This document shows, in pieces, positions 2,703 through 29,884 of a stretch of DNA of 64,000 nt. The notes beneath the pieces were generated by a model. It ran no database searches, was not told the DNA's origin, and worked only from the letters and a program-made list of their open reading frames with translations. The position numbers and the translations under genes were made by a program. The stretch lies in the NCBI RefSeq assembly GCF_009914755.1, contig NC_060940.1. One strand, given 5' to 3'. Numbering within the stretch: the first letter of the stretch is position 1; the number at the start of each line of letters is the position of its first letter. Source of the DNA: the human T2T-CHM13v2.0 reference genome, Homo sapiens.

Positions 2703-3202
<500 letters not shown>

Positions 3203-3572
3203 CAGTACCCATGGCTTTTACTAACATGTATTGTATTAACATACTCATTTTTAAAAAATCACATTTTAAAGCATCCATAGGGGAGGGAAGGGGAAAATTC
3301 TTCCTTATCCATGATTGCAAGATCACACAGACTCCTTACTCTGCTGGAGGTATGATAAAAATCTCAAGTTTTAAAAATGCTTCAATCCTTCTTTATCATA
3401 GAATAAAAAGCTAGGAAAGCAGCTATTATAAATGGGCCTTTGATGACAAAGTTTAGTTTTGATTCTAGAAAGCACCTAAAAGGATAGAGAAAGTGATGGC
3501 TTTTACCCTGTAATTCAAGCTAAGCCACTGGCACCTGATTCATGACATGAAGAGGTTCAAGTGGAGAGCTTC

Positions 3573-3665
3573 TCAAAATTTTTCAGTGGTAACAGTCTGT
3601 GATGCTGTGTTTAACATGCAGTCATTGTAGTTTTTCCTTTGCAGACATGCCAGTGACAGCCACAC
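3573..3665 (-). CDS. ERI2: ERI2 alternative terminal exon (coding part), overlapping an ACSM3 coding exon
   Basis: TGTTTTGTCTTCACACAG acceptor; VWLSLACLQRKNYNDCMLNTASQTVTTEKF-TGA; 244+84 = 328 aa, matching a recalled ERI2 isoform length. Confidence 0.75.
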   Translation of the reverse strand: MWLSLACLQRKNYNDCMLNTASQTVTTEKF

Positions 3666-3788
3666 CTGTGTGAAGACAAAACACAATGAGATCATGGCCA
3701 TATTCTTTACCAGTGGAACAAGTGGATATCCGAAAATGACTGCACACACCCACAGCAGTTTTGGTTTAGGATTATCTGTAAATGGAAG
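3645..3788 (+). CDS. ACSM3: ACSM3 coding exon with AMP-binding P-loop signature
   Basis: CAG/GT boundaries; encodes HASDSHTCVKTKHNEIMAIFFTSGTSGYPKMTAHTHSSFGLGLSVNG; FTSGTSGYPK is the adenylate-forming enzyme A3 motif. Confidence 0.97.
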
Positions 3789-3904
3789 GTATACTTTCAC
3801 AAAAGTGCAGCTTGAAGTGTCAAAACTGCAAAGATGATGACTTATGTACTGGTCTTTTATATTTATTTTCCTATGTACATCAGGGCTACTCTTTGTTTTC
3901 CCAG

Positions 3905-4061
3905 GTTCTGGCTAGATTTGACACCCTCAGATGTGATGTGGAATACCTCAGATACGGGCTGGGCAAAGTCTGCATGGAGTAGTGTTTTTTCTCCGTGGAT
4001 CCAGGGAGCATGTGTATTCACACACCATTTACCCCGTTTTGAGCCGACTTCTATCTTGCAA
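3905..4061 (+). CDS. ACSM3: ACSM3 coding exon
   Basis: CCAG acceptor, GTAAGC donor; FWLDLTPSDVMWNTSDTGWAKSAWSSVFSPWIQG...TSILQ; phase matches neighbours. Confidence 0.96.
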
Positions 4062-12409: not shown

Positions 12410-12488
12410 CATTGTCAACCAGAGAATATTCCCCTTTTCCTGTTTACTCATATTGGGCTTCTGAAGTAAGGTTCTGTAGGTTCCACAG
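12410..12488 (-). CDS. ERI2: ERI2 alternative (short isoform) exon inside an ACSM3 intron
   Basis: TTTGTTTAG acceptor, consensus GTAAGT donor; CGTYRTLLQKPNMSKQEKGNILWLTM; phases fit both neighbours. Confidence 0.75.
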
Positions 12489-13780: not shown

Positions 13781-13863
13781 CCAAATTCTTGCTGAAGAAA
13801 AGCATGCTGGTCCCCTGAGGCCAGATCACTGTTCCAGGTCCACGAAGGCAAGAGGAAGGGACC
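13781..13863 (-). CDS. ERI2: ERI2 alternative (short isoform) exon inside an ACSM3 intron
   Basis: CTCTTTCTAG acceptor, GTATTT donor; phase 0 matches exon 8; GPFLLPSWTWNSDLASGDQHAFLQQEFG. Confidence 0.75.
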
Positions 13864-18250: not shown

Positions 18251-19300
18251 ACAAGGGTTTTGGGTAAAGACAAAAATGGGTAATTGTTCATACAATGTAA
18301 AACTGCCCACTGGTGAACAGTTTTCAATATGTGAAAAAATTATAACTTCAAGTCTTTGTTTCTCACCAAATGGCTGTCCTGGTAATTTGTTGTTTCAAAT
18401 AATTCCTTTTCAATGAAATCTTTACTCCCAGATCAAAGTGGATAGGAAATGTTGCCAGCTTATCTTTAAGCTGGACAAACGAATCCTTGAATTTAATAAG
18501 ATTTCAGGCACCTAAGTGCAGGATACTTAATCATAAAAAAGCTTCAGGGGACTCTCCTGGAACTGTGCCTACAGGGAAGCATCATTCCATAGCCAGCTCC
18601 GGGCTGGTAATCTGGCGTTGGAGGTACATACTAGTTGATGCACCTAGACTCATGCCTCTAGGGAAGGCAGTAAATGGCAGTCCTGGTAGTGCCCTAGGAG
18701 AGAAAATGACAGGACTCCAAATTTACTTTTAAAGGGGGCTATGAGGGATGGCCTATCTTTCTGTCTTCTCCATTACAGGTCCAAAAACTAGGCAGAGTTT
18801 TCAAAAACATTTCTAGGAAGGATAAAATTTGGAGAAGAGGATTTGTAAGCATAAAGTAATAACATCTTTCTTGGCTTCTGCCAGTTAAAGGCCACCATGA
18901 TTTCCACTCTTGTTCCTCAGGGCCATGGAAATGGATCAGAGCAACAAAAAAATAGCTGCTGGAATCTTCACAGCCTTGTATAAAGACTGCATGTTCTCTG
19001 TGAACTGTTCCCTTCAACAAAGACATGGCAAACTCAGCGTGACTACTGTTTATAAGTAATCCCCCATGCTGAGGGCTAGGCTGGATGAGGCTGGGTTGTT
19101 ACAGGGGTCCCAGAAGCTCTCCTGTATTAGGTACAGACCAGGAAGTGGCTGGCTTAAGAGCACAGAGCTGGGATCAAACTTTATTAAAACACACTGGCCC
19201 ACCCCACCAGGCATGTAGATTCTCAGAGCAAGCAAACAAGACATACTAAAACATACAAATGCATAACTCATTTTCCTGGTGTTTCAAATATTTATTTTAG

Positions 19301-19420
19301 GTAGTAAAGGCTTTTGTCGTTCTAAATCCTGATTACAAGTCACATGATCAAGAACAACTAATAAAGGAGATTCAGGAGCATGTTAAAAAAACTACAGCAC
19401 CTTACAAATATCCCAGAAAG
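19301..19420 (+). CDS. ACSM3: ACSM3 coding exon
   Basis: TTTTAG acceptor, GTAGGC donor; [40 protein letters not shown]. Confidence 0.96.
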
Positions 19421-19816
19421 GTAGGCATCCTAATTATAACGAATATTTGCTCAGTGTTGTGGACAATTTCAAGTGTTTATTTTTACATTTTAATGAATAT
19501 TTTCTTCACACATGCTGCACCACATGTCCCAAACTGAACTGATGACATATGGGTAAGAATCAGAATCTTTGAGATTAAAATGAAACCCTGAACCTATTTT
19601 GTTTGGTCCTTTGGCTTACTGGACTCACAGTAAATACTTAATATCAAGACAACTTTCCTAACAATACCCTTTTCCCTATTTTGGCTGTTACCCAAAACCC
19701 ATTCCAAAGACTATTCTAATTCTTCCACCTAGAATTCATAATCAAACTGCTATATAATTGGCTTTATGTAAAGATAAAAATTTCCAGGCTAATTTTCTTC
19801 CCCTTGATGCCAACAG

Positions 19817-19903
19817 GTAGAATTTATTCAAGAGCTGCCAAAGACTATCAGTGGGAAGACAAAAAGAAATGAACTGAGGAAGAAAGAATGGAAGACAATT
19901 TAA
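19817..19903 (+). CDS. ACSM3: ACSM3 last coding exon (A10 catalytic Lys motif)
   Basis: CAACAG acceptor; VEFIQELPKTISGKTKRNELRKKEWKTI-TAA (stop 19901-19903). Confidence 0.96.
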   Translation, partial: VEFIQELPKTISGKTKRNELRKKEWKTI

Positions 19904-20062
19904 AGTTGTTTCATTAATTACCATATCTATAAAACAAACATAGTATCTGTCAATCTCTAGAAACCACAAGATGATGGAGAGGTCATAAAAACTGTGGTAG
20001 TATGCTTAGAAACTGTTGATTTAAAATATCTTGTGGTTATGATATCAGAGGCTAAATTTTGA

Positions 20063-20068
20063 AATAAA
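20063..20068 (+). terminator. ACSM3: Candidate ACSM3 polyadenylation signal (further AATAAA at 20275, 20491, 20569)
   Basis: First AATAAA downstream of the stop codon; which signal is used cannot be determined from sequence. Confidence 0.5.
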
Positions 20069-20654
20069 ATATTTGGCAAATTCCTCCACATTAGTGTCAA
20101 TGTTCCTATCATTTCTTAATATAAAAATAATACCATCAATTGCTGATTAATTTTTAAATGTATAGTATAGAAGCAGTTTCTGAACCAGATCTCTGCTACA
20201 TAGGTTTTCAAACTTTAGTTGACTAATTCTTCTGATATGTTGATATACAAATCAGAACCAATGTTCAAGCCTGAAATAAAACTAAAGAACTTATAAAAGT
20301 TTTTAGAAAAATATAAAATATCAGTTAGAAGATTATGATAATCTCAAAGTACAAGAATCTACCTGAAAATAGACTAGGGATTTTTATTAGTCACATTTTT
20401 TGCAAATAATTTAAAAATAGTTTAGACTTGTTTCAAGGTCTAACTATAAAAGAAGGATCATATACTATTGTTGCTTATTATATGTAATCTAATAAATACT
20501 GTTTACAAAAGATTACACTTGTGGTTCCTGAAGAAAGTATGGTAAATGCAGTAAACATTAATATATAAAATAAAAATAAAATAGTGTAAGATGTTATCAG
20601 AATACTCATGTTTGGAAATTCAAGGAACAATTAGGATTCATACATGAAAGGTTA

Positions 20655-21998
20655 TCAATTCCTCATTGAAGGCCTGAGTCTCAAAGAATTTTTGGTGGAA
20701 ATACTTAAATTTCTGTCACAAATATGGCTTGTTTCTGGAGAACTAAAAGTGAGTCCCCCTGTGGAATGAGATGGAACCATGCTGTTGGCTCTTTCCTTTT
20801 GAAGTGTTTGTTCCCATTTGAAATAACCACAACATTTTCTGTTTTCTTGGTATTTCCCGATAGGGCAACAATAGAAGACTTTTCCATGGTTCGGTCCATT
20901 ATTAGAAACAACAAGTCTCTTAGATCTCCGACCACACTTGCATAATGGAGGTGTCATTTTCCCACTCTTCCATGGCTCTTGTAGGTTAACTGTAGAAGTT
21001 AATATAGATGGGAGACGCCTCCAGGAAGAACTTCTTACTGGGGAGCAATCAGATGATGTAGGCTTTTCTTCATGAATAGTGAAGGGTTGTTTTTTTGCTG
21101 GTGGGAAAGCTTGGGGACTGCATGGATTCCTTTTGGTACCACCTGAAAGAAGAGGATGTTTCCCCAAAACTAAAGGATGAGACATATTGGCATTAACTCT
21201 GTTGAAGGTACTTGATTTGTGTTCAGGTAACTTAAAGGCAGAAATATCTGAACCTGGATCTTTGGCTTCTTTTACATTATAAATAGTAGTGTGAGGACTC
21301 TTGTACACAATAGACTTAGAAGTCTCAGATTTTTGAGGAGTTTCCTCTATGTCTCCAAAGTTTTCATGACTTGACATTTCCAATTCTTTCAAAACCATTA
21401 ATCTTTCTCCAGAATTAAATGAAATCTCTAAGTCTGAGTCACTAATGGGAACTGTACAGTCTACGTTTTCCTCAGGCTGAGATGCTGGCAGTAAAACCAC
21501 ATCCTCCCAATCAGCCAACACAGGTAAACAGTCCAGAGTAGAGCTCATTTCCAAATCAGAAACATGATGAACAGTTGGAACGGTGGTAGAAACAAGTACC
21601 AATTCTGAACCAACTGTTGAAGCCTTAGATTTGGTATTAAATGCAAGATGTTCATTTTTTCCTTGCTTTTGCATATAGATAGGTGAATTCAAGGTAGGAG
21701 ACTGCAACTGCCCCACAGAAGTAGAGGACTTAGTATTAAAAAGAGGTAAGGAACTTTTGACATTGTGAAGACTTGCTTTTATATTGTTTTTTACTTGTAA
21801 TTGATCCTGTTGTGCCTTTATAGGAGAATTTGCACAAATTGACTTCATTTGAACTTTTTCATGAGGATTTATTATATTTTTAGGCTCCTTATTATATATG
21901 CTGGGACCCTGGATGCTAATGTTACAGGCAGACATTTCTTCAACTTGAATTGTATTCAAATTTCTGGCCAGAATGCTGAAATTCTTCTTAGTGGGAAC
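20655..21998 (-). CDS. ERI2: ERI2 long terminal exon: Ser/Pro-rich linker plus GRF zinc finger
   Basis: ATAG acceptor at 21999-22002, in frame with the 434-aa ORF; CKCG...GPNHGKVFYCCP...CGYFKWE at 20811-20942; exons 1-9 total 2076 nt = 691 aa. Confidence 0.96.
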   Translation of the reverse strand, partial: VPTKKNFSILARNLNTIQVEEMSACNISIQGPSIYNKEPKNIINPHEKVQMKSICANSPIKAQQDQLQVKNNIKASLHNVKSSLPLFNTKSSTSVGQLQSPTLNSPIYMQKQGKNEHLAFNTKSKASTVGSELVLVSTTVPTVHHVSDLEMSSTLDCLPVLADWEDVVLLPASQPEENVDCTVPISDSDLEISFNSGERLMVLKELEMSSHENFGDIEETPQKSETSKSIVYKSPHTTIYNVKEAKDPGSDISAFKLPEHKSSTFNRVNANMSHPLVLGKHPLLSGGTKRNPCSPQAFPPAKKQPFTIHEEKPTSSDCSPVRSSSWRRLPSILTSTVNLQEPWKSGKMTPPLCKCGRRSKRLVVSNNGPNHGKVFYCCPIGKYQENRKCCGYFKWEQTLQKERANSMVPSHSTGGLTFSSPETSHICDRNLSISTKNSLRLRPSMRN

Positions 21999-22193
21999 CT
22001 ATGATTCCACAGACAAATGCAACAGCTTTAGAAACTGTGCATTCGTTAATTTCTTCAGTATACAGTTTTATGACAAAAAAGAGAAATGTCATTGATTTAT
22101 AAATGACTGCACACATTAAATCTACGTTTCAAAGAACGTATGACTGTTTATGAAGTTTGAGATGACAGAATAAAAAGGCAAGACACTACTAAC

Positions 22194-22282
22194 CTTGTTC
22201 AACGACCTTGTAATTTTCATTACACAACCATCTCTGATCATTTTCCAAGCAAGAAGGGCAGTATTCCGAGAATCGTCCAACC
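22194..22282 (-). CDS. ERI2: ERI2 exon 8, Exo III Asp
   Basis: CTCAG acceptor, GTTAGT donor; GLDDSRNTALLAWKMIRDGCVMKITRSLNK. Confidence 0.95.
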
Positions 22283-29338: not shown

Positions 29339-29361
29339 CGCGCGAGCCGCTTGGTCGCCAT
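29339..29361 (-). CDS. ERI2: ERI2 exon 1 coding part (MATKRLAR)
   Basis: ATG at 29361 in strong context (GGGAATGG); GTACTC donor at 29338; phase 2 matches next exon. Confidence 0.9.
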
Positions 29362-29426
29362 TCCCGACACTCCTTGCTTTTCCAAGTCCAGCTGCCGGAA
29401 GTCGCTCGACTTCTACTTCCGGTCCG

Positions 29427-29441
29427 TTCAAAAAGCCCGCG
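29427..29441 (-). promoter_or_regulatory. CDE/CHR tandem element
   Basis: Minus strand CGCGG-GCTT-TTTGAA: CDE, 4-nt spacer, canonical CHR. Confidence 0.75.
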
Positions 29442-29559
29442 AGGCTGAGGGGCGGTTGTTGTTGGCAGCTGTGGCTAAGGAGGGGAGAACCTCTGCTCCC
29501 CGCCCGTCTTCTCTTCTGCGTTTCCCGGGCTAGGGGGCGTGGGGAGTGGTTTTAGGCGG

Positions 29560-29636
29560 CGAAGCCGCTCGGCAGCACCTTCCTTCTTTGCCAGGCAGAC
29601 GCCCGTTGTAGCCGTTGGGGAACCGTTGAGAATCCG
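29560..29636 (+). other. REXO5: REXO5 non-coding first exon (5' end approximate)
   Basis: CCG|GTAACC donor at 29637 pairs with the CTTTCTCCACAG acceptor ending 29882, two nt before the ATG; TSS not determinable. Confidence 0.6.
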
Positions 29637-29884
29637 GTAACCGATGCGGACGGTAAAGCCGTTTGGGTTAGAGCGGCGCGGGTGTCCAGTCCGCGGAACG
29701 GGGAGATCGTTGGCACCTTCGCTTTTTTAGGGGAACGGGGATAGTTCGGTAAACTGAATTGAGAAGCGGATCCGAGGGAGGTTGAAAGCTGTCAAGCCCG
29801 TGTAGCTCTCCCGCTAGGAGGCGGCACGCGGGGGAATAGGGGCGCTGGAGTTTCCCCAGCTCTACCTCATCTTTCTCCACAGCC

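What the first reader, a model, noticed from the sequence alone, without database searches (positions are those of the whole stretch)
3645..3690. Dual-coded DNA: an ACSM3 exon encodes the ERI2 splice acceptor and overlapping codons on the opposite strand
Seen: ACSM3 codons for T-C-V-K-T-K-H-N read on the minus strand as TGTTTTGTCTTCACACAG, the pyrimidine tract and AG of the ERI2 alternative terminal exon. Positions 3645-3665 are CDS on both strands (HASDSH on +, VWLSLAC on -). The ACSM3 acceptor (TTTTTCCTTTGCAG) is itself ERI2 coding sequence. This lies just upstream of the ACSM3 AMP-binding loop. Inference: synonymous ACSM3 variants here could alter ERI2 splicing, and ERI2 RNA could mask the ACSM3 acceptor.
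Basis: partly seen in the sequence, partly recalled or inferred. Interest (0 to 1): 0.72.

Follow-up and report, generated by a model that had tools for sequence, protein, structure and literature searches.

The report
ACSM3 and ERI2 antisense exon overlap
Twenty-one bases of human chromosome 16 are protein code on both strands, because the last exon of a short ERI2 form starts inside an ACSM3 exon; the overlap is real and already in the public gene catalogue, and nothing shows the two genes regulate each other through it.

Summary
ACSM3 exon 3645-3788 (+) and the alternative terminal exon of ERI2, 3124-3665 (-), share 21 nt that are in frame on both strands. The ERI2 acceptor AG (3667-3666), its pyrimidine tract and a candidate branch point lie in ACSM3 codons. 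The ACSM3 acceptor and its tract lie in ERI2-short codons.

Both exons are in RefSeq, so the overlap itself is already known. What I add:
- The two frames sit third position on third position, so 8 of the 9 changes silent in ACSM3 are also silent in ERI2-short.
- The antisense pyrimidine tract is a by-product of ACSM3 residues that are nearly invariant in 56 distinct mammalian sequences.
- The ERI2 tail appears only in simian ERI2 models.
- Acceptor-like motifs of this strength are not rare antisense to coding sequence (5 of 319).
- A published table of synonymous-constraint elements lists none here (the protein id is from my recall).

It follows from the sequence that silent ACSM3 changes can destroy the ERI2 acceptor: all three at 3666 do. 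RNA masking of the ACSM3 acceptor is untested speculation. The closest precedent is THRA/NR1D1. Interest is low.

The parts
3645..3788 (+). ACSM3 coding exon, 144 nt and in frame. Codons start at 3646; base 3645 completes a Lys codon begun in the previous exon.
   Evidence: The exon translation matches Pfam AMP-binding, E 1.4e-5, 24.5 bits, below the 29.9-bit curated cut-off for this short piece. 145 ACSM3-type relatives were found.
3709..3735 (+). TSGTSGYPK, the AMP-binding loop motif of ACSM3
   Evidence: for the coordinates. In one search, columns 22-24, 27, 29 and 30 are invariant in 56 of 56 distinct sequences.
3631..3644 (+). ACSM3 3' splice site (pyrimidine tract plus AG). On the - strand it is ERI2-short codons Leu-Gln-Arg-Lys-Asn.
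   Evidence: Matrix score 6.07, rank 9 of 36.
3610..3615 (+). Candidate ACSM3 branch site TTAAC, with the A at 3614, 31 nt before the exon. It lies inside ERI2-short codons. This is an inference only, and two AGs lie between it and the acceptor.
3645..3665 (.). The 21 nt that are coding on both strands: (K)HASDSH(T) on +, VWLSLAC on -. Third codon positions coincide.
3124..3665 (-). Alternative terminal exon of ERI2 (short isoform), 542 nt
   Evidence: Hub annotation. Single copy within the window.
3573..3665 (-). Coding part of that exon: 30 codons (3576-3665) plus the stop (3573-3575)
   Evidence: The same tail is present in Pongo and Symphalangus ERI2 models.
3666..3667 (-). ERI2-short acceptor AG. 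On + it is the third base of an ACSM3 Thr codon and the first base of a Cys codon.
3668..3686 (-). Pyrimidine-rich tract of the ERI2-short acceptor, antisense to ACSM3 codons Cys-Val-Lys-Thr-Lys-His-Asn
3686..3690 (-). Candidate ERI2-short branch site CTCAT, with the A at 3687, 22 nt before the exon. No AG lies between 3705 and the acceptor. This is an inference only.
3141..3146 (-). AATAAA polyadenylation signal of the ERI2-short exon
12410..12488 (-). Upstream alternative ERI2 exon, 79 nt, spliced to 3665 in the 328-codon form
   Evidence: Hub annotation; (AG and GT present; frame kept only when the 83-nt exon is also included)
13781..13863 (-). Upstream alternative ERI2 exon, 83 nt
   Evidence: Hub annotation

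Best explanation
This is an ordinary, annotated convergent overlap between two protein-coding genes. It is carried by a minor ERI2 transcript that runs past the canonical ERI2 terminal exon, continues about 16 kb antisense through the 3' half of ACSM3, and ends in exon 3124-3665.

Shown:
- The 3' splice site of that exon (AG, pyrimidine tract, probable branch point) is written on the antisense strand of ACSM3 codons Thr-Cys-Val-Lys-Thr-Lys-His-Asn.
- Those residues are nearly invariant in mammalian ACSM3.
- The first 7 ERI2 codons read the edge of the ACSM3 exon and the next 23 read the end of the ACSM3 intron.
- The short protein keeps the RNase_T exonuclease domain and replaces everything after ERI2 exon 8.
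- The two frames are in the wobble-on-wobble register, so they constrain each other very little.

Inferred:
- The purine-rich ACSM3 codons give a ready-made pyrimidine tract on the other strand.
- The acceptor was exapted from what ACSM3 protein constraint already kept in place. It needs only C at the silent third base of the Thr codon.
- The resulting ERI2 tail is a young, simian-lineage by-product.
- No dedicated cross-regulation between the genes acts through this site.
For: Anatomy and frames.

Acceptor quality: the site ranks 10 of 36 annotated acceptors. The canonical long-exon acceptor at 21998 ranks 25 of 36.

ACSM3 residues across the acceptor, counted in 56 distinct sequences from the 120 listed relatives: Thr 54, Cys 56, Val 56, Lys 38, Thr 56, Lys 54, His 55, Asn 40 (plus 16 Asp), Glu 56.

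Register: 63 possible substitutions in the 21 nt, of which 9 are silent in ACSM3, 18 in ERI2-short and 8 in both.

Distribution: two searches of the 5.8-billion-protein set with the tail returned ERI2 models only from Pongo (a cluster of 20), Symphalangus, Rhinopithecus, Aotus and Cebus, plus 2 unnamed ORF calls. That is 6 of 6 and 5 of 6 candidates scored, with no non-primate ERI2. The gibbon model joins exon 8 directly to this exon, so the acceptor serves two donors.

Domain: RNase_T covers 38-222 of the 328-residue form.

Constraint: tables S1-S3 of PMC4014394 list synonymous-constraint elements for ENSP00000289416 only at residues 557-577 and 542-582, and none near residues 213-232.
Against: - No RNA data could be consulted, so use and abundance of the junction rest on the RefSeq model and on predicted primate models.
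- Absence of non-primate models is weak evidence. Annotation depth differs between species, the search needs shared 5-residue words, and 90% clustering hides cluster members.
- Two New World monkey models read further into the antisense of the ACSM3 exon, and the Rhinopithecus tail differs, so the acceptor may not be used identically across simians.
- No DNA of other mammals was available, so I could not test whether C is kept at the Thr third position.
- That ENSP00000289416 is ACSM3 is from my memory. It is only indirectly consistent with the domain coordinates and was not confirmed in print.
- My weight matrix is trained on only 35 sites.
Confidence: 0.72

Rival explanations
1. Splicing noise. 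The ERI2 short transcript is a rare read-through product that happens to use a decent cryptic acceptor. It makes no stable or functional protein, so the 'coding on both strands' is nominal.
For: - Acceptor-like sites of this strength occur about once per kb antisense to coding sequence (5 of 319).
- An open 7-codon antisense frame is expected by chance (P about 0.69).
- The 84-residue alternative C-terminus has no Pfam match.
- The tail is restricted to simian models, and the models disagree in structure.
- No paper on this isoform was found.
Against: - The same 328-residue structure is modelled independently in Pongo, and the acceptor is used from a second donor in Symphalangus.
- The stop codon lies in the last exon, so the transcript is not an obvious target of nonsense-mediated decay.
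- A canonical AATAAA sits 17 nt before the exon end.
- A different ERI2 C-terminal truncation was reported to matter for influenza replication, so truncated ERI2 can be biologically active (PMC7735754, passages).
Confidence: 0.3
2. Regulatory cross-talk of the THRA/NR1D1 type. ERI2 read-through transcription, or pairing of the ERI2-short RNA with ACSM3 pre-mRNA, covers the ACSM3 branch site, tract and AG. This promotes skipping of the in-frame 144-nt exon that carries the AMP-binding loop, or ACSM3 transcription conversely limits the ERI2 isoform choice.
For: - Perfect complementarity is given by the geometry. The ERI2-short exon covers the last 521 nt of the ACSM3 intron plus 21 nt of the exon.
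- Skipping would stay in frame, since 144 is divisible by 3.
- Antisense control of exon choice is an established kind. For THRA/NR1D1 I read the abstract and Introduction of PMC4569393. For the titin antisense RNA I saw only the listing and the start of the abstract of PMC12054628.
Against: - There is no expression or perturbation data for this locus.
- The canonical mRNAs already overlap exon on exon by 816 nt elsewhere (hub table), so this site adds little pairing potential.
- Any ERI2-short pre-mRNA is antisense to ten ACSM3 exons, not specifically to this one.
- No synonymous-constraint element is listed at this site (id recalled).
- The isoform is seen only in simians, whereas ACSM3 exon structure and sequence are conserved across mammals.
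Confidence: 0.07
3. Selected dual coding. Both reading frames over 3645-3665, and the splice signals in 3666-3690, are under purifying selection for both genes, so ACSM3 silent sites are constrained by ERI2.
For: - The Thr codon uses C at its third base, as the acceptor needs.
- The ERI2-short frame has one position (3660) where a change silent in ACSM3 would create a stop.
Against: - The wobble-on-wobble register minimises mutual constraint.
- No constraint element is listed here in the 9-, 15- or 30-codon sets, while one is listed over the last ACSM3 coding exons (id recalled).
- The tail is found only in simians.
Confidence: 0.05

Closest known systems
THRA (TR-alpha2) / NR1D1 (Rev-erb-alpha) antisense coding overlap
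   Same: The genes are convergent. An alternatively spliced final exon of one gene overlaps an exon of the other on the opposite strand. The alternative exon swaps the C-terminus. Its authors conclude that the splice elements arose by stepwise exaptation of sequence in and next to existing coding sequence (PMC4569393, abstract and Introduction read).
   Different: - TR-alpha2 is a major, widely conserved eutherian isoform with a known dominant-negative role and experimentally mapped splicing elements. ERI2-short is seen only in simian models and has no known role.
- The overlap here falls on an internal ACSM3 exon and is only 21 nt of exon on exon.
- No regulation has been shown at this locus.
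Human gene pairs with overlapping coding regions (genome-wide surveys)
   Same: It belongs to the class counted by Sanna et al. 2008: 51 human pairs with overlapping coding regions among 669 overlapping pairs, with convergent as the commonest different-strand type. It also belongs to the CDS/CDS class that Solda et al. 2008 find under-represented, and it fits their view that overlaps are mostly species-specific and arise by acquisition of terminal exons (PMC2335118 and PMC2330155, passages).
   Different: I did not see ACSM3/ERI2 named in the passages I read from those papers. Here the overlap depends on a non-canonical isoform.
Antisense RNAs that steer exon usage (e.g. the titin antisense transcript)
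   Different: Those cases have perturbation data. Here there is none, and the antisense partner is a protein-coding isoform.
ERI2 internal alternative 3' splice site (influenza-induced short form)
   Same: It is another way of truncating ERI2 after exon 8 while keeping the exonuclease domain (PMC7735754, passages and supplement rows).
   Different: It is a different event. The junction hg19 chr16:20809533-20810585 maps to window 21142-22194, inside the long terminal exon, and gives a 35-residue tail. It does not touch ACSM3 coding sequence or the 3665 acceptor.

Membership tests
Convergent sense-antisense pair of protein-coding genes with a CDS-on-CDS exon overlap | Two annotated exons on opposite strands share bases | tested here: met
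   Exons 3645-3788 (+) and 3124-3665 (-) share 3645-3665 (hub table).
Convergent sense-antisense pair of protein-coding genes with a CDS-on-CDS exon overlap | The shared bases are in the open reading frame of both transcripts | tested here: met
   both spliced frames are open through the overlap. ERI2-short is 328 codons with its stop at 3573-3575.
Convergent sense-antisense pair of protein-coding genes with a CDS-on-CDS exon overlap | Canonical splice signals at both exon boundaries | tested here: met
   AG at both acceptors. Matrix ranks are 9 and 10 of 36.
Convergent sense-antisense pair of protein-coding genes with a CDS-on-CDS exon overlap | Both transcripts are actually expressed, and both are translated | not testable with these tools
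   No RNA-seq, ribosome-profiling or proteomic data were available. The only support is the RefSeq model and primate gene models with the same junction.
THRA/NR1D1-type antisense-regulated alternative terminal exon | The alternative last exon overlaps the partner gene's exon and changes the C-terminus | tested here: met
   the tail is replaced after exon 8 and RNase_T 38-222 is retained.
THRA/NR1D1-type antisense-regulated alternative terminal exon | Partner-gene expression or RNA measurably shifts the splice choice | not testable with these tools
   This needs perturbation experiments. No paper on it was found.
THRA/NR1D1-type antisense-regulated alternative terminal exon | The isoform is conserved over a broad clade | tested here: inconclusive
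   Only simian ERI2 models carry the tail. Absence elsewhere may reflect annotation depth.
Synonymous constraint element (coding sequence with an added, selected function) | Significantly reduced synonymous rate in mammalian alignments | tested here: not met
   Tables S1-S3 of PMC4014394 list ENSP00000289416 only at residues 557-577 and 542-582, and none at about 213-232. That this id is ACSM3 is from my recall, and I ran no alignment myself.
AMP-binding enzyme family (ACSM3 exon) | Match to Pfam PF00501 and presence of the loop motif | tested here: met
   the full-length orthologue P0023 matches PF00501 at 75-426 with E 2.2e-66. The 47-residue exon alone matches with E 1.4e-5 and 24.5 bits, below the 29.9 cut-off. 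The motif is at 3709-3735.
RNase_T / DEDD exonuclease family (ERI2-short) | Match to Pfam PF00929 above the curated cut-off | tested here: met
   P0004 (the 328-residue form) scores 85.2 bits against a cut-off of 24, over residues 38-222.

The most novel reading that the evidence does not exclude
In simian primates the ERI2 read-through isoform and ACSM3 are coupled through this site. Use of the 3665 acceptor, or pairing of the ERI2-short exon with ACSM3 pre-mRNA, lowers inclusion of the AMP-binding-loop exon in tissues that express both genes. Silent variants at the ACSM3 Thr codon (3666) then act as ERI2 isoform-switch alleles. This would be a second THRA/NR1D1-like case, one that arose by exaptation of protein-constrained codons.
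Probability: 0.06. Interest if true: 0.6.

Novelty: already known. Interest (0 to 1): 0.2.

Why it matters
The main value is for variant interpretation.
- A 'silent' ACSM3 change at 3666 removes the ERI2-short acceptor.
- 3660 C>T is silent in ACSM3 but creates a stop in ERI2-short.
- Changes that are silent in the ERI2-short tail hit the ACSM3 acceptor AG and pyrimidine tract (for example 3644 G>A).

Pipelines that score only one strand will mislabel such variants.

The site is also a tidy small example of how amino-acid constraint on one gene (Lys/Thr/His/Asn codons) can hold a usable splice acceptor in place on the other strand for a neighbour to exapt. It does not open a new question.

Tried and rejected

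2. I first suspected that the influenza-induced 'short ERI2' of PMC7735754 was this isoform. Its junction maps to window 21142-22194 and gives a 35-residue tail, so it is a different event.

3. To get DNA of other mammals for a direct test of the silent sites, I scanned genome contigs with the exon peptide. Of 334 pattern matches, 6 loci passed. The 4 I inspected are uninterrupted bacterial acyl-CoA synthetase genes with open frames of 385-591 codons; the other 2 were not inspected. No mammalian DNA was obtained. So synonymous-site conservation was not computed here.

4. Lin et al. 2011 (the original constraint-element paper) is not held under the PMC id I recalled. I used the re-tabulation in PMC4014394 instead. 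Gene symbols and UniProt ids gave no hits because the tables use Ensembl-54 protein ids. The recalled id ENSP00000289416 gave rows, but I could not confirm the id in print.

5. Literature searches:
- 'ACSM3' + 'ERI2': 10 papers. I opened only one, which says only that ERI2 overlaps ACSM3. The other nine hold each term once and were judged from the listing alone.
- 'NM_080663': 0 papers.
- 'EXOD1': 14 papers, none on the overlap judging by title and abstract.
- 'ERI2' + 'isoform': 689 papers, mostly unrelated word matches.

6. Repeat origin of the three ERI2-short exons: none has another copy in the window, while the positive control (ACSM3 alternative exon 2728-2838) has 30. An origin in low-copy or old repeats is not excluded.

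7. I considered whether the long open antisense frame (112 codons, 3573-3911) means something. In this register only TTA, CTA and TCA sense codons give antisense stops (88 of 1677 codons). The chance of 47 open codons is about 0.08, which is unremarkable.

8. No structure prediction, complex prediction or RNA folding was run. None would bear on the question.

Full report
**What is there**

Reading both strands shows the ACSM3 acceptor, a T-rich tract ending in GCAG, followed by the exon from 3645. On the other strand a pyrimidine-rich tract ends in CACAG and is followed by an exon from 3665 downwards.

Joining the annotated coding parts in a script gives one open ACSM3 frame that ends in a stop. 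All 11 parts have AG acceptors, and the 10 followed by an intron have GT donors. In that frame the exon begins (K)HASDSHTCVKTKHNE and carries TSGTSGYPK at 3709-3735.

Joining ERI2 exons 1-8 with 13781-13863, 12410-12488 and 3124-3665 gives an open frame of 328 codons. The last exon contributes 30 codons starting VWLSLAC (3576-3665), with the stop at 3573-3575. The same tail frame results if exon 8 is joined directly to 3665, giving 274 codons. Including only one of the two small exons shifts the frame.

AATAAA lies on the - strand at 3146-3141, 17 nt before the exon end.

Bases 3645-3665 are coding on both strands. The ERI2 acceptor lies in ACSM3 codons, and the ACSM3 acceptor lies in ERI2-short codons. 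Both exons are rows of the RefSeq table the hub attached, so the overlap itself is public knowledge.

**Is it more than chance?**

As a motif, no. I trained a weight matrix (positions -20 to +3, leave-one-out) on the window's 36 annotated acceptors.
- The ERI2-short site scores 5.53, rank 10 of 36, just behind the ACSM3 acceptor it faces (6.07, rank 9).
- 122 of 8913 AGs in the window score as high.
- Among 319 antisense AGs inside 5033 nt of annotated coding sequence, 5 do, this one included. That is roughly one per kilobase.

In the register found here, antisense stops arise only from sense TTA, CTA and TCA codons, which make up 88 of 1677 codons. Seven open codons are therefore expected (P about 0.69), and even 47 are not rare (P about 0.08). 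The antisense frame is in fact open for 112 codons, 3573-3911.

The matrix is crude, with only 35 training sites. Proper splice-site models were not available.

**Register and mutual constraint**

Third codon positions of the two frames coincide at every codon of the overlap. Of the 63 possible single substitutions in the 21 nt, 9 are silent in ACSM3, 18 in ERI2-short and 8 in both. The one ACSM3-silent change that is not silent in ERI2-short (3660 C>T) creates a stop there. This is the least constraining way for two antisense frames to overlap.

Outside the overlap:
- All three substitutions at 3666 keep Thr in ACSM3 and destroy the G of the ERI2 acceptor AG.
- Other ACSM3-silent sites fall at -4, -7, -10, -13 and -16 of the ERI2 acceptor.
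- Another falls on the A of the only well-placed yUnAy match (CTCAT, A at 3687, 22 nt upstream; no AG between 3705 and the acceptor).
- Conversely, changes silent in ERI2-short hit ACSM3 intron positions -1, -3, -6, -7, -9 and -12.

**Where the acceptor comes from**

A search with the 47-residue exon peptide returned 145 relatives among 153 candidates. The 120 listed are ACSM3 models whose named members are mammals, plus unnamed ORFs. They collapse to 56 distinct 47-mers.

Across the ERI2 splice signals the ACSM3 residues are nearly fixed, counted out of 56:

| Residue | Count |
|---|---|
| Thr | 54 |
| Cys | 56 |
| Val | 56 |
| Lys | 38 |
| Thr | 56 |
| Lys | 54 |
| His | 55 |
| Asn | 40 (plus 16 Asp) |
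| Glu | 56 |

Codons for these residues are purine-rich: 17 of 25 bases at 3666-3690. Their complement is therefore a pyrimidine tract. The A of the acceptor AG is the complement of the invariant Cys codon's first T. Only the G depends on a silent base.

I infer that ACSM3 protein constraint holds a near-complete acceptor in place on the other strand and that ERI2 exapted it. I could not test the silent base in other species, because no mammalian DNA could be obtained.

**How old and how real the isoform is**

Two searches with the tail found ERI2 models carrying it only in simians (sequences, alignment).
- A Pongo-named cluster of 20 members has the same 328-residue structure.
- A Symphalangus model joins exon 8 directly to this exon.
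- A Rhinopithecus model has a somewhat different end.
- Aotus and Cebus models read further into the antisense of the ACSM3 exon.
- Two unnamed proteins are ORF calls on short contigs.

No non-primate ERI2 appeared. This is weak evidence for youth, because annotation depth, word-based retrieval and 90% clustering all limit the search.

The short form keeps the RNase_T domain (38-222, 85 bits) and has no other Pfam match. The three short-form exons have no other copy in the window, whereas a control exon in an Alu-like repeat has 30.

**Constraint data in print**

Tables S1-S3 of PMC4014394 re-tabulate the Lin et al. synonymous-constraint elements at 9-, 15- and 30-codon resolution. They list ENSP00000289416 only at residues 557-577 and 542-582.

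That this id is ACSM3 is my recollection. It fits the domain flags of the random control segments when compared with Pfam coordinates of a 586-residue orthologue, but I could not confirm it in print.

If the id is right, the constrained stretch is window 19370-19420 plus 19817-19888. That is the last ACSM3 coding exons, which lie inside the 3' UTR exon of canonical ERI2. It is not the finding's site, which would be residues about 213-232.

**Cross-talk**

Nothing here bears on RNA masking except geometry.

By the hub's exon table, the canonical mRNAs already share 120 + 696 = 816 nt of exon-on-exon complementarity at 19301-19420 and 19817-20512. The mature ERI2-short and ACSM3 mRNAs share 21 nt at this site. 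The ERI2-short pre-mRNA is antisense to ten ACSM3 exons alike. I rate dedicated regulation through this site at well under 10%.

**Comparison with the known**

The closest precedent is THRA/NR1D1, where an alternative last exon overlaps the partner's exon on the other strand. Its authors argue for stepwise exaptation of sequence in and next to existing coding sequence (PMC4569393, abstract and Introduction).

Surveys count 51 human pairs with overlapping coding regions. They find such overlaps under-represented, mostly lineage-specific, and often created by new terminal exons (PMC2335118 and PMC2330155, passages).

For this locus I found only the remark that ERI2 overlaps ACSM3 (PMC4199483, passages).

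The influenza-linked short ERI2 of PMC7735754 is a different event, at window 21142.

**Verdict**

The overlap is already annotated and belongs to a known kind. The by-product and exaptation reading is the best supported. Regulatory claims remain open. Interest is low.

Noticed in passing
window 21142 (- strand), within ERI2 terminal exon 19271-21998: There is an internal alternative 3' splice site, with the tract ending CTTCTTTCAG before the exon. It matches the influenza-induced junction hg19 chr16:20809533-20810585 of PMC7735754. Joined to exon 8, it gives exactly the 35-residue tail that paper states. It is not among the hub table's exons.
   Followed up: yes
window 19271-20512: The canonical ACSM3 and ERI2 mRNAs overlap tail to tail. 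ACSM3 exons 19301-19420 and 19817-20512, including the coding sequence up to 19903, lie wholly inside the ERI2 3' UTR exon. The published constraint elements for ENSP00000289416 (ACSM3 by my recall), residues 542-582, map to 19370-19420 plus 19817-19888, which is inside this overlap.
   Followed up: partly
window 2728-2838 (+): This ACSM3 alternative exon lies in a high-copy repeat. It has 30 other matches in the window at about 79-82% identity among those listed, on both strands, which looks like an exonised Alu-type element.
   Followed up: partly
window 29339-29421: ERI2 exon 1 (29339-29403, -) and alternative REXO5 first exons (29356-29421 and 29375-29652, +) overlap head to head, touching the first ERI2 codons (29356-29361). 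Two exonuclease genes share a bidirectional promoter region. This was read from the hub table only.
   Followed up: no
window 3573-3911 (- strand): The antisense frame is open for 112 codons, across the whole ACSM3 exon, the 116-nt intron and into the next exon. Public protein sets contain ORF-caller 'proteins' from this antisense frame on short unnamed contigs (P0001, 130 aa, 100% identical over the 40-residue query; P0006, 174 aa). These are probably prediction artefacts.
   Followed up: partly
window 21998 (- strand): The acceptor of the canonical long ERI2 terminal exon is weak by the window-trained matrix (2.21, rank 25 of 36). This may help explain why at least three alternative downstream acceptors are used (21142, 13863, 3665).
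   Followed up: no
P0007: A Tupaia chinensis 'ACSM3' model of 1173 residues carries an RRM domain (PF00076) besides the AMP-binding domains. It is probably a fused gene model.
   Followed up: no
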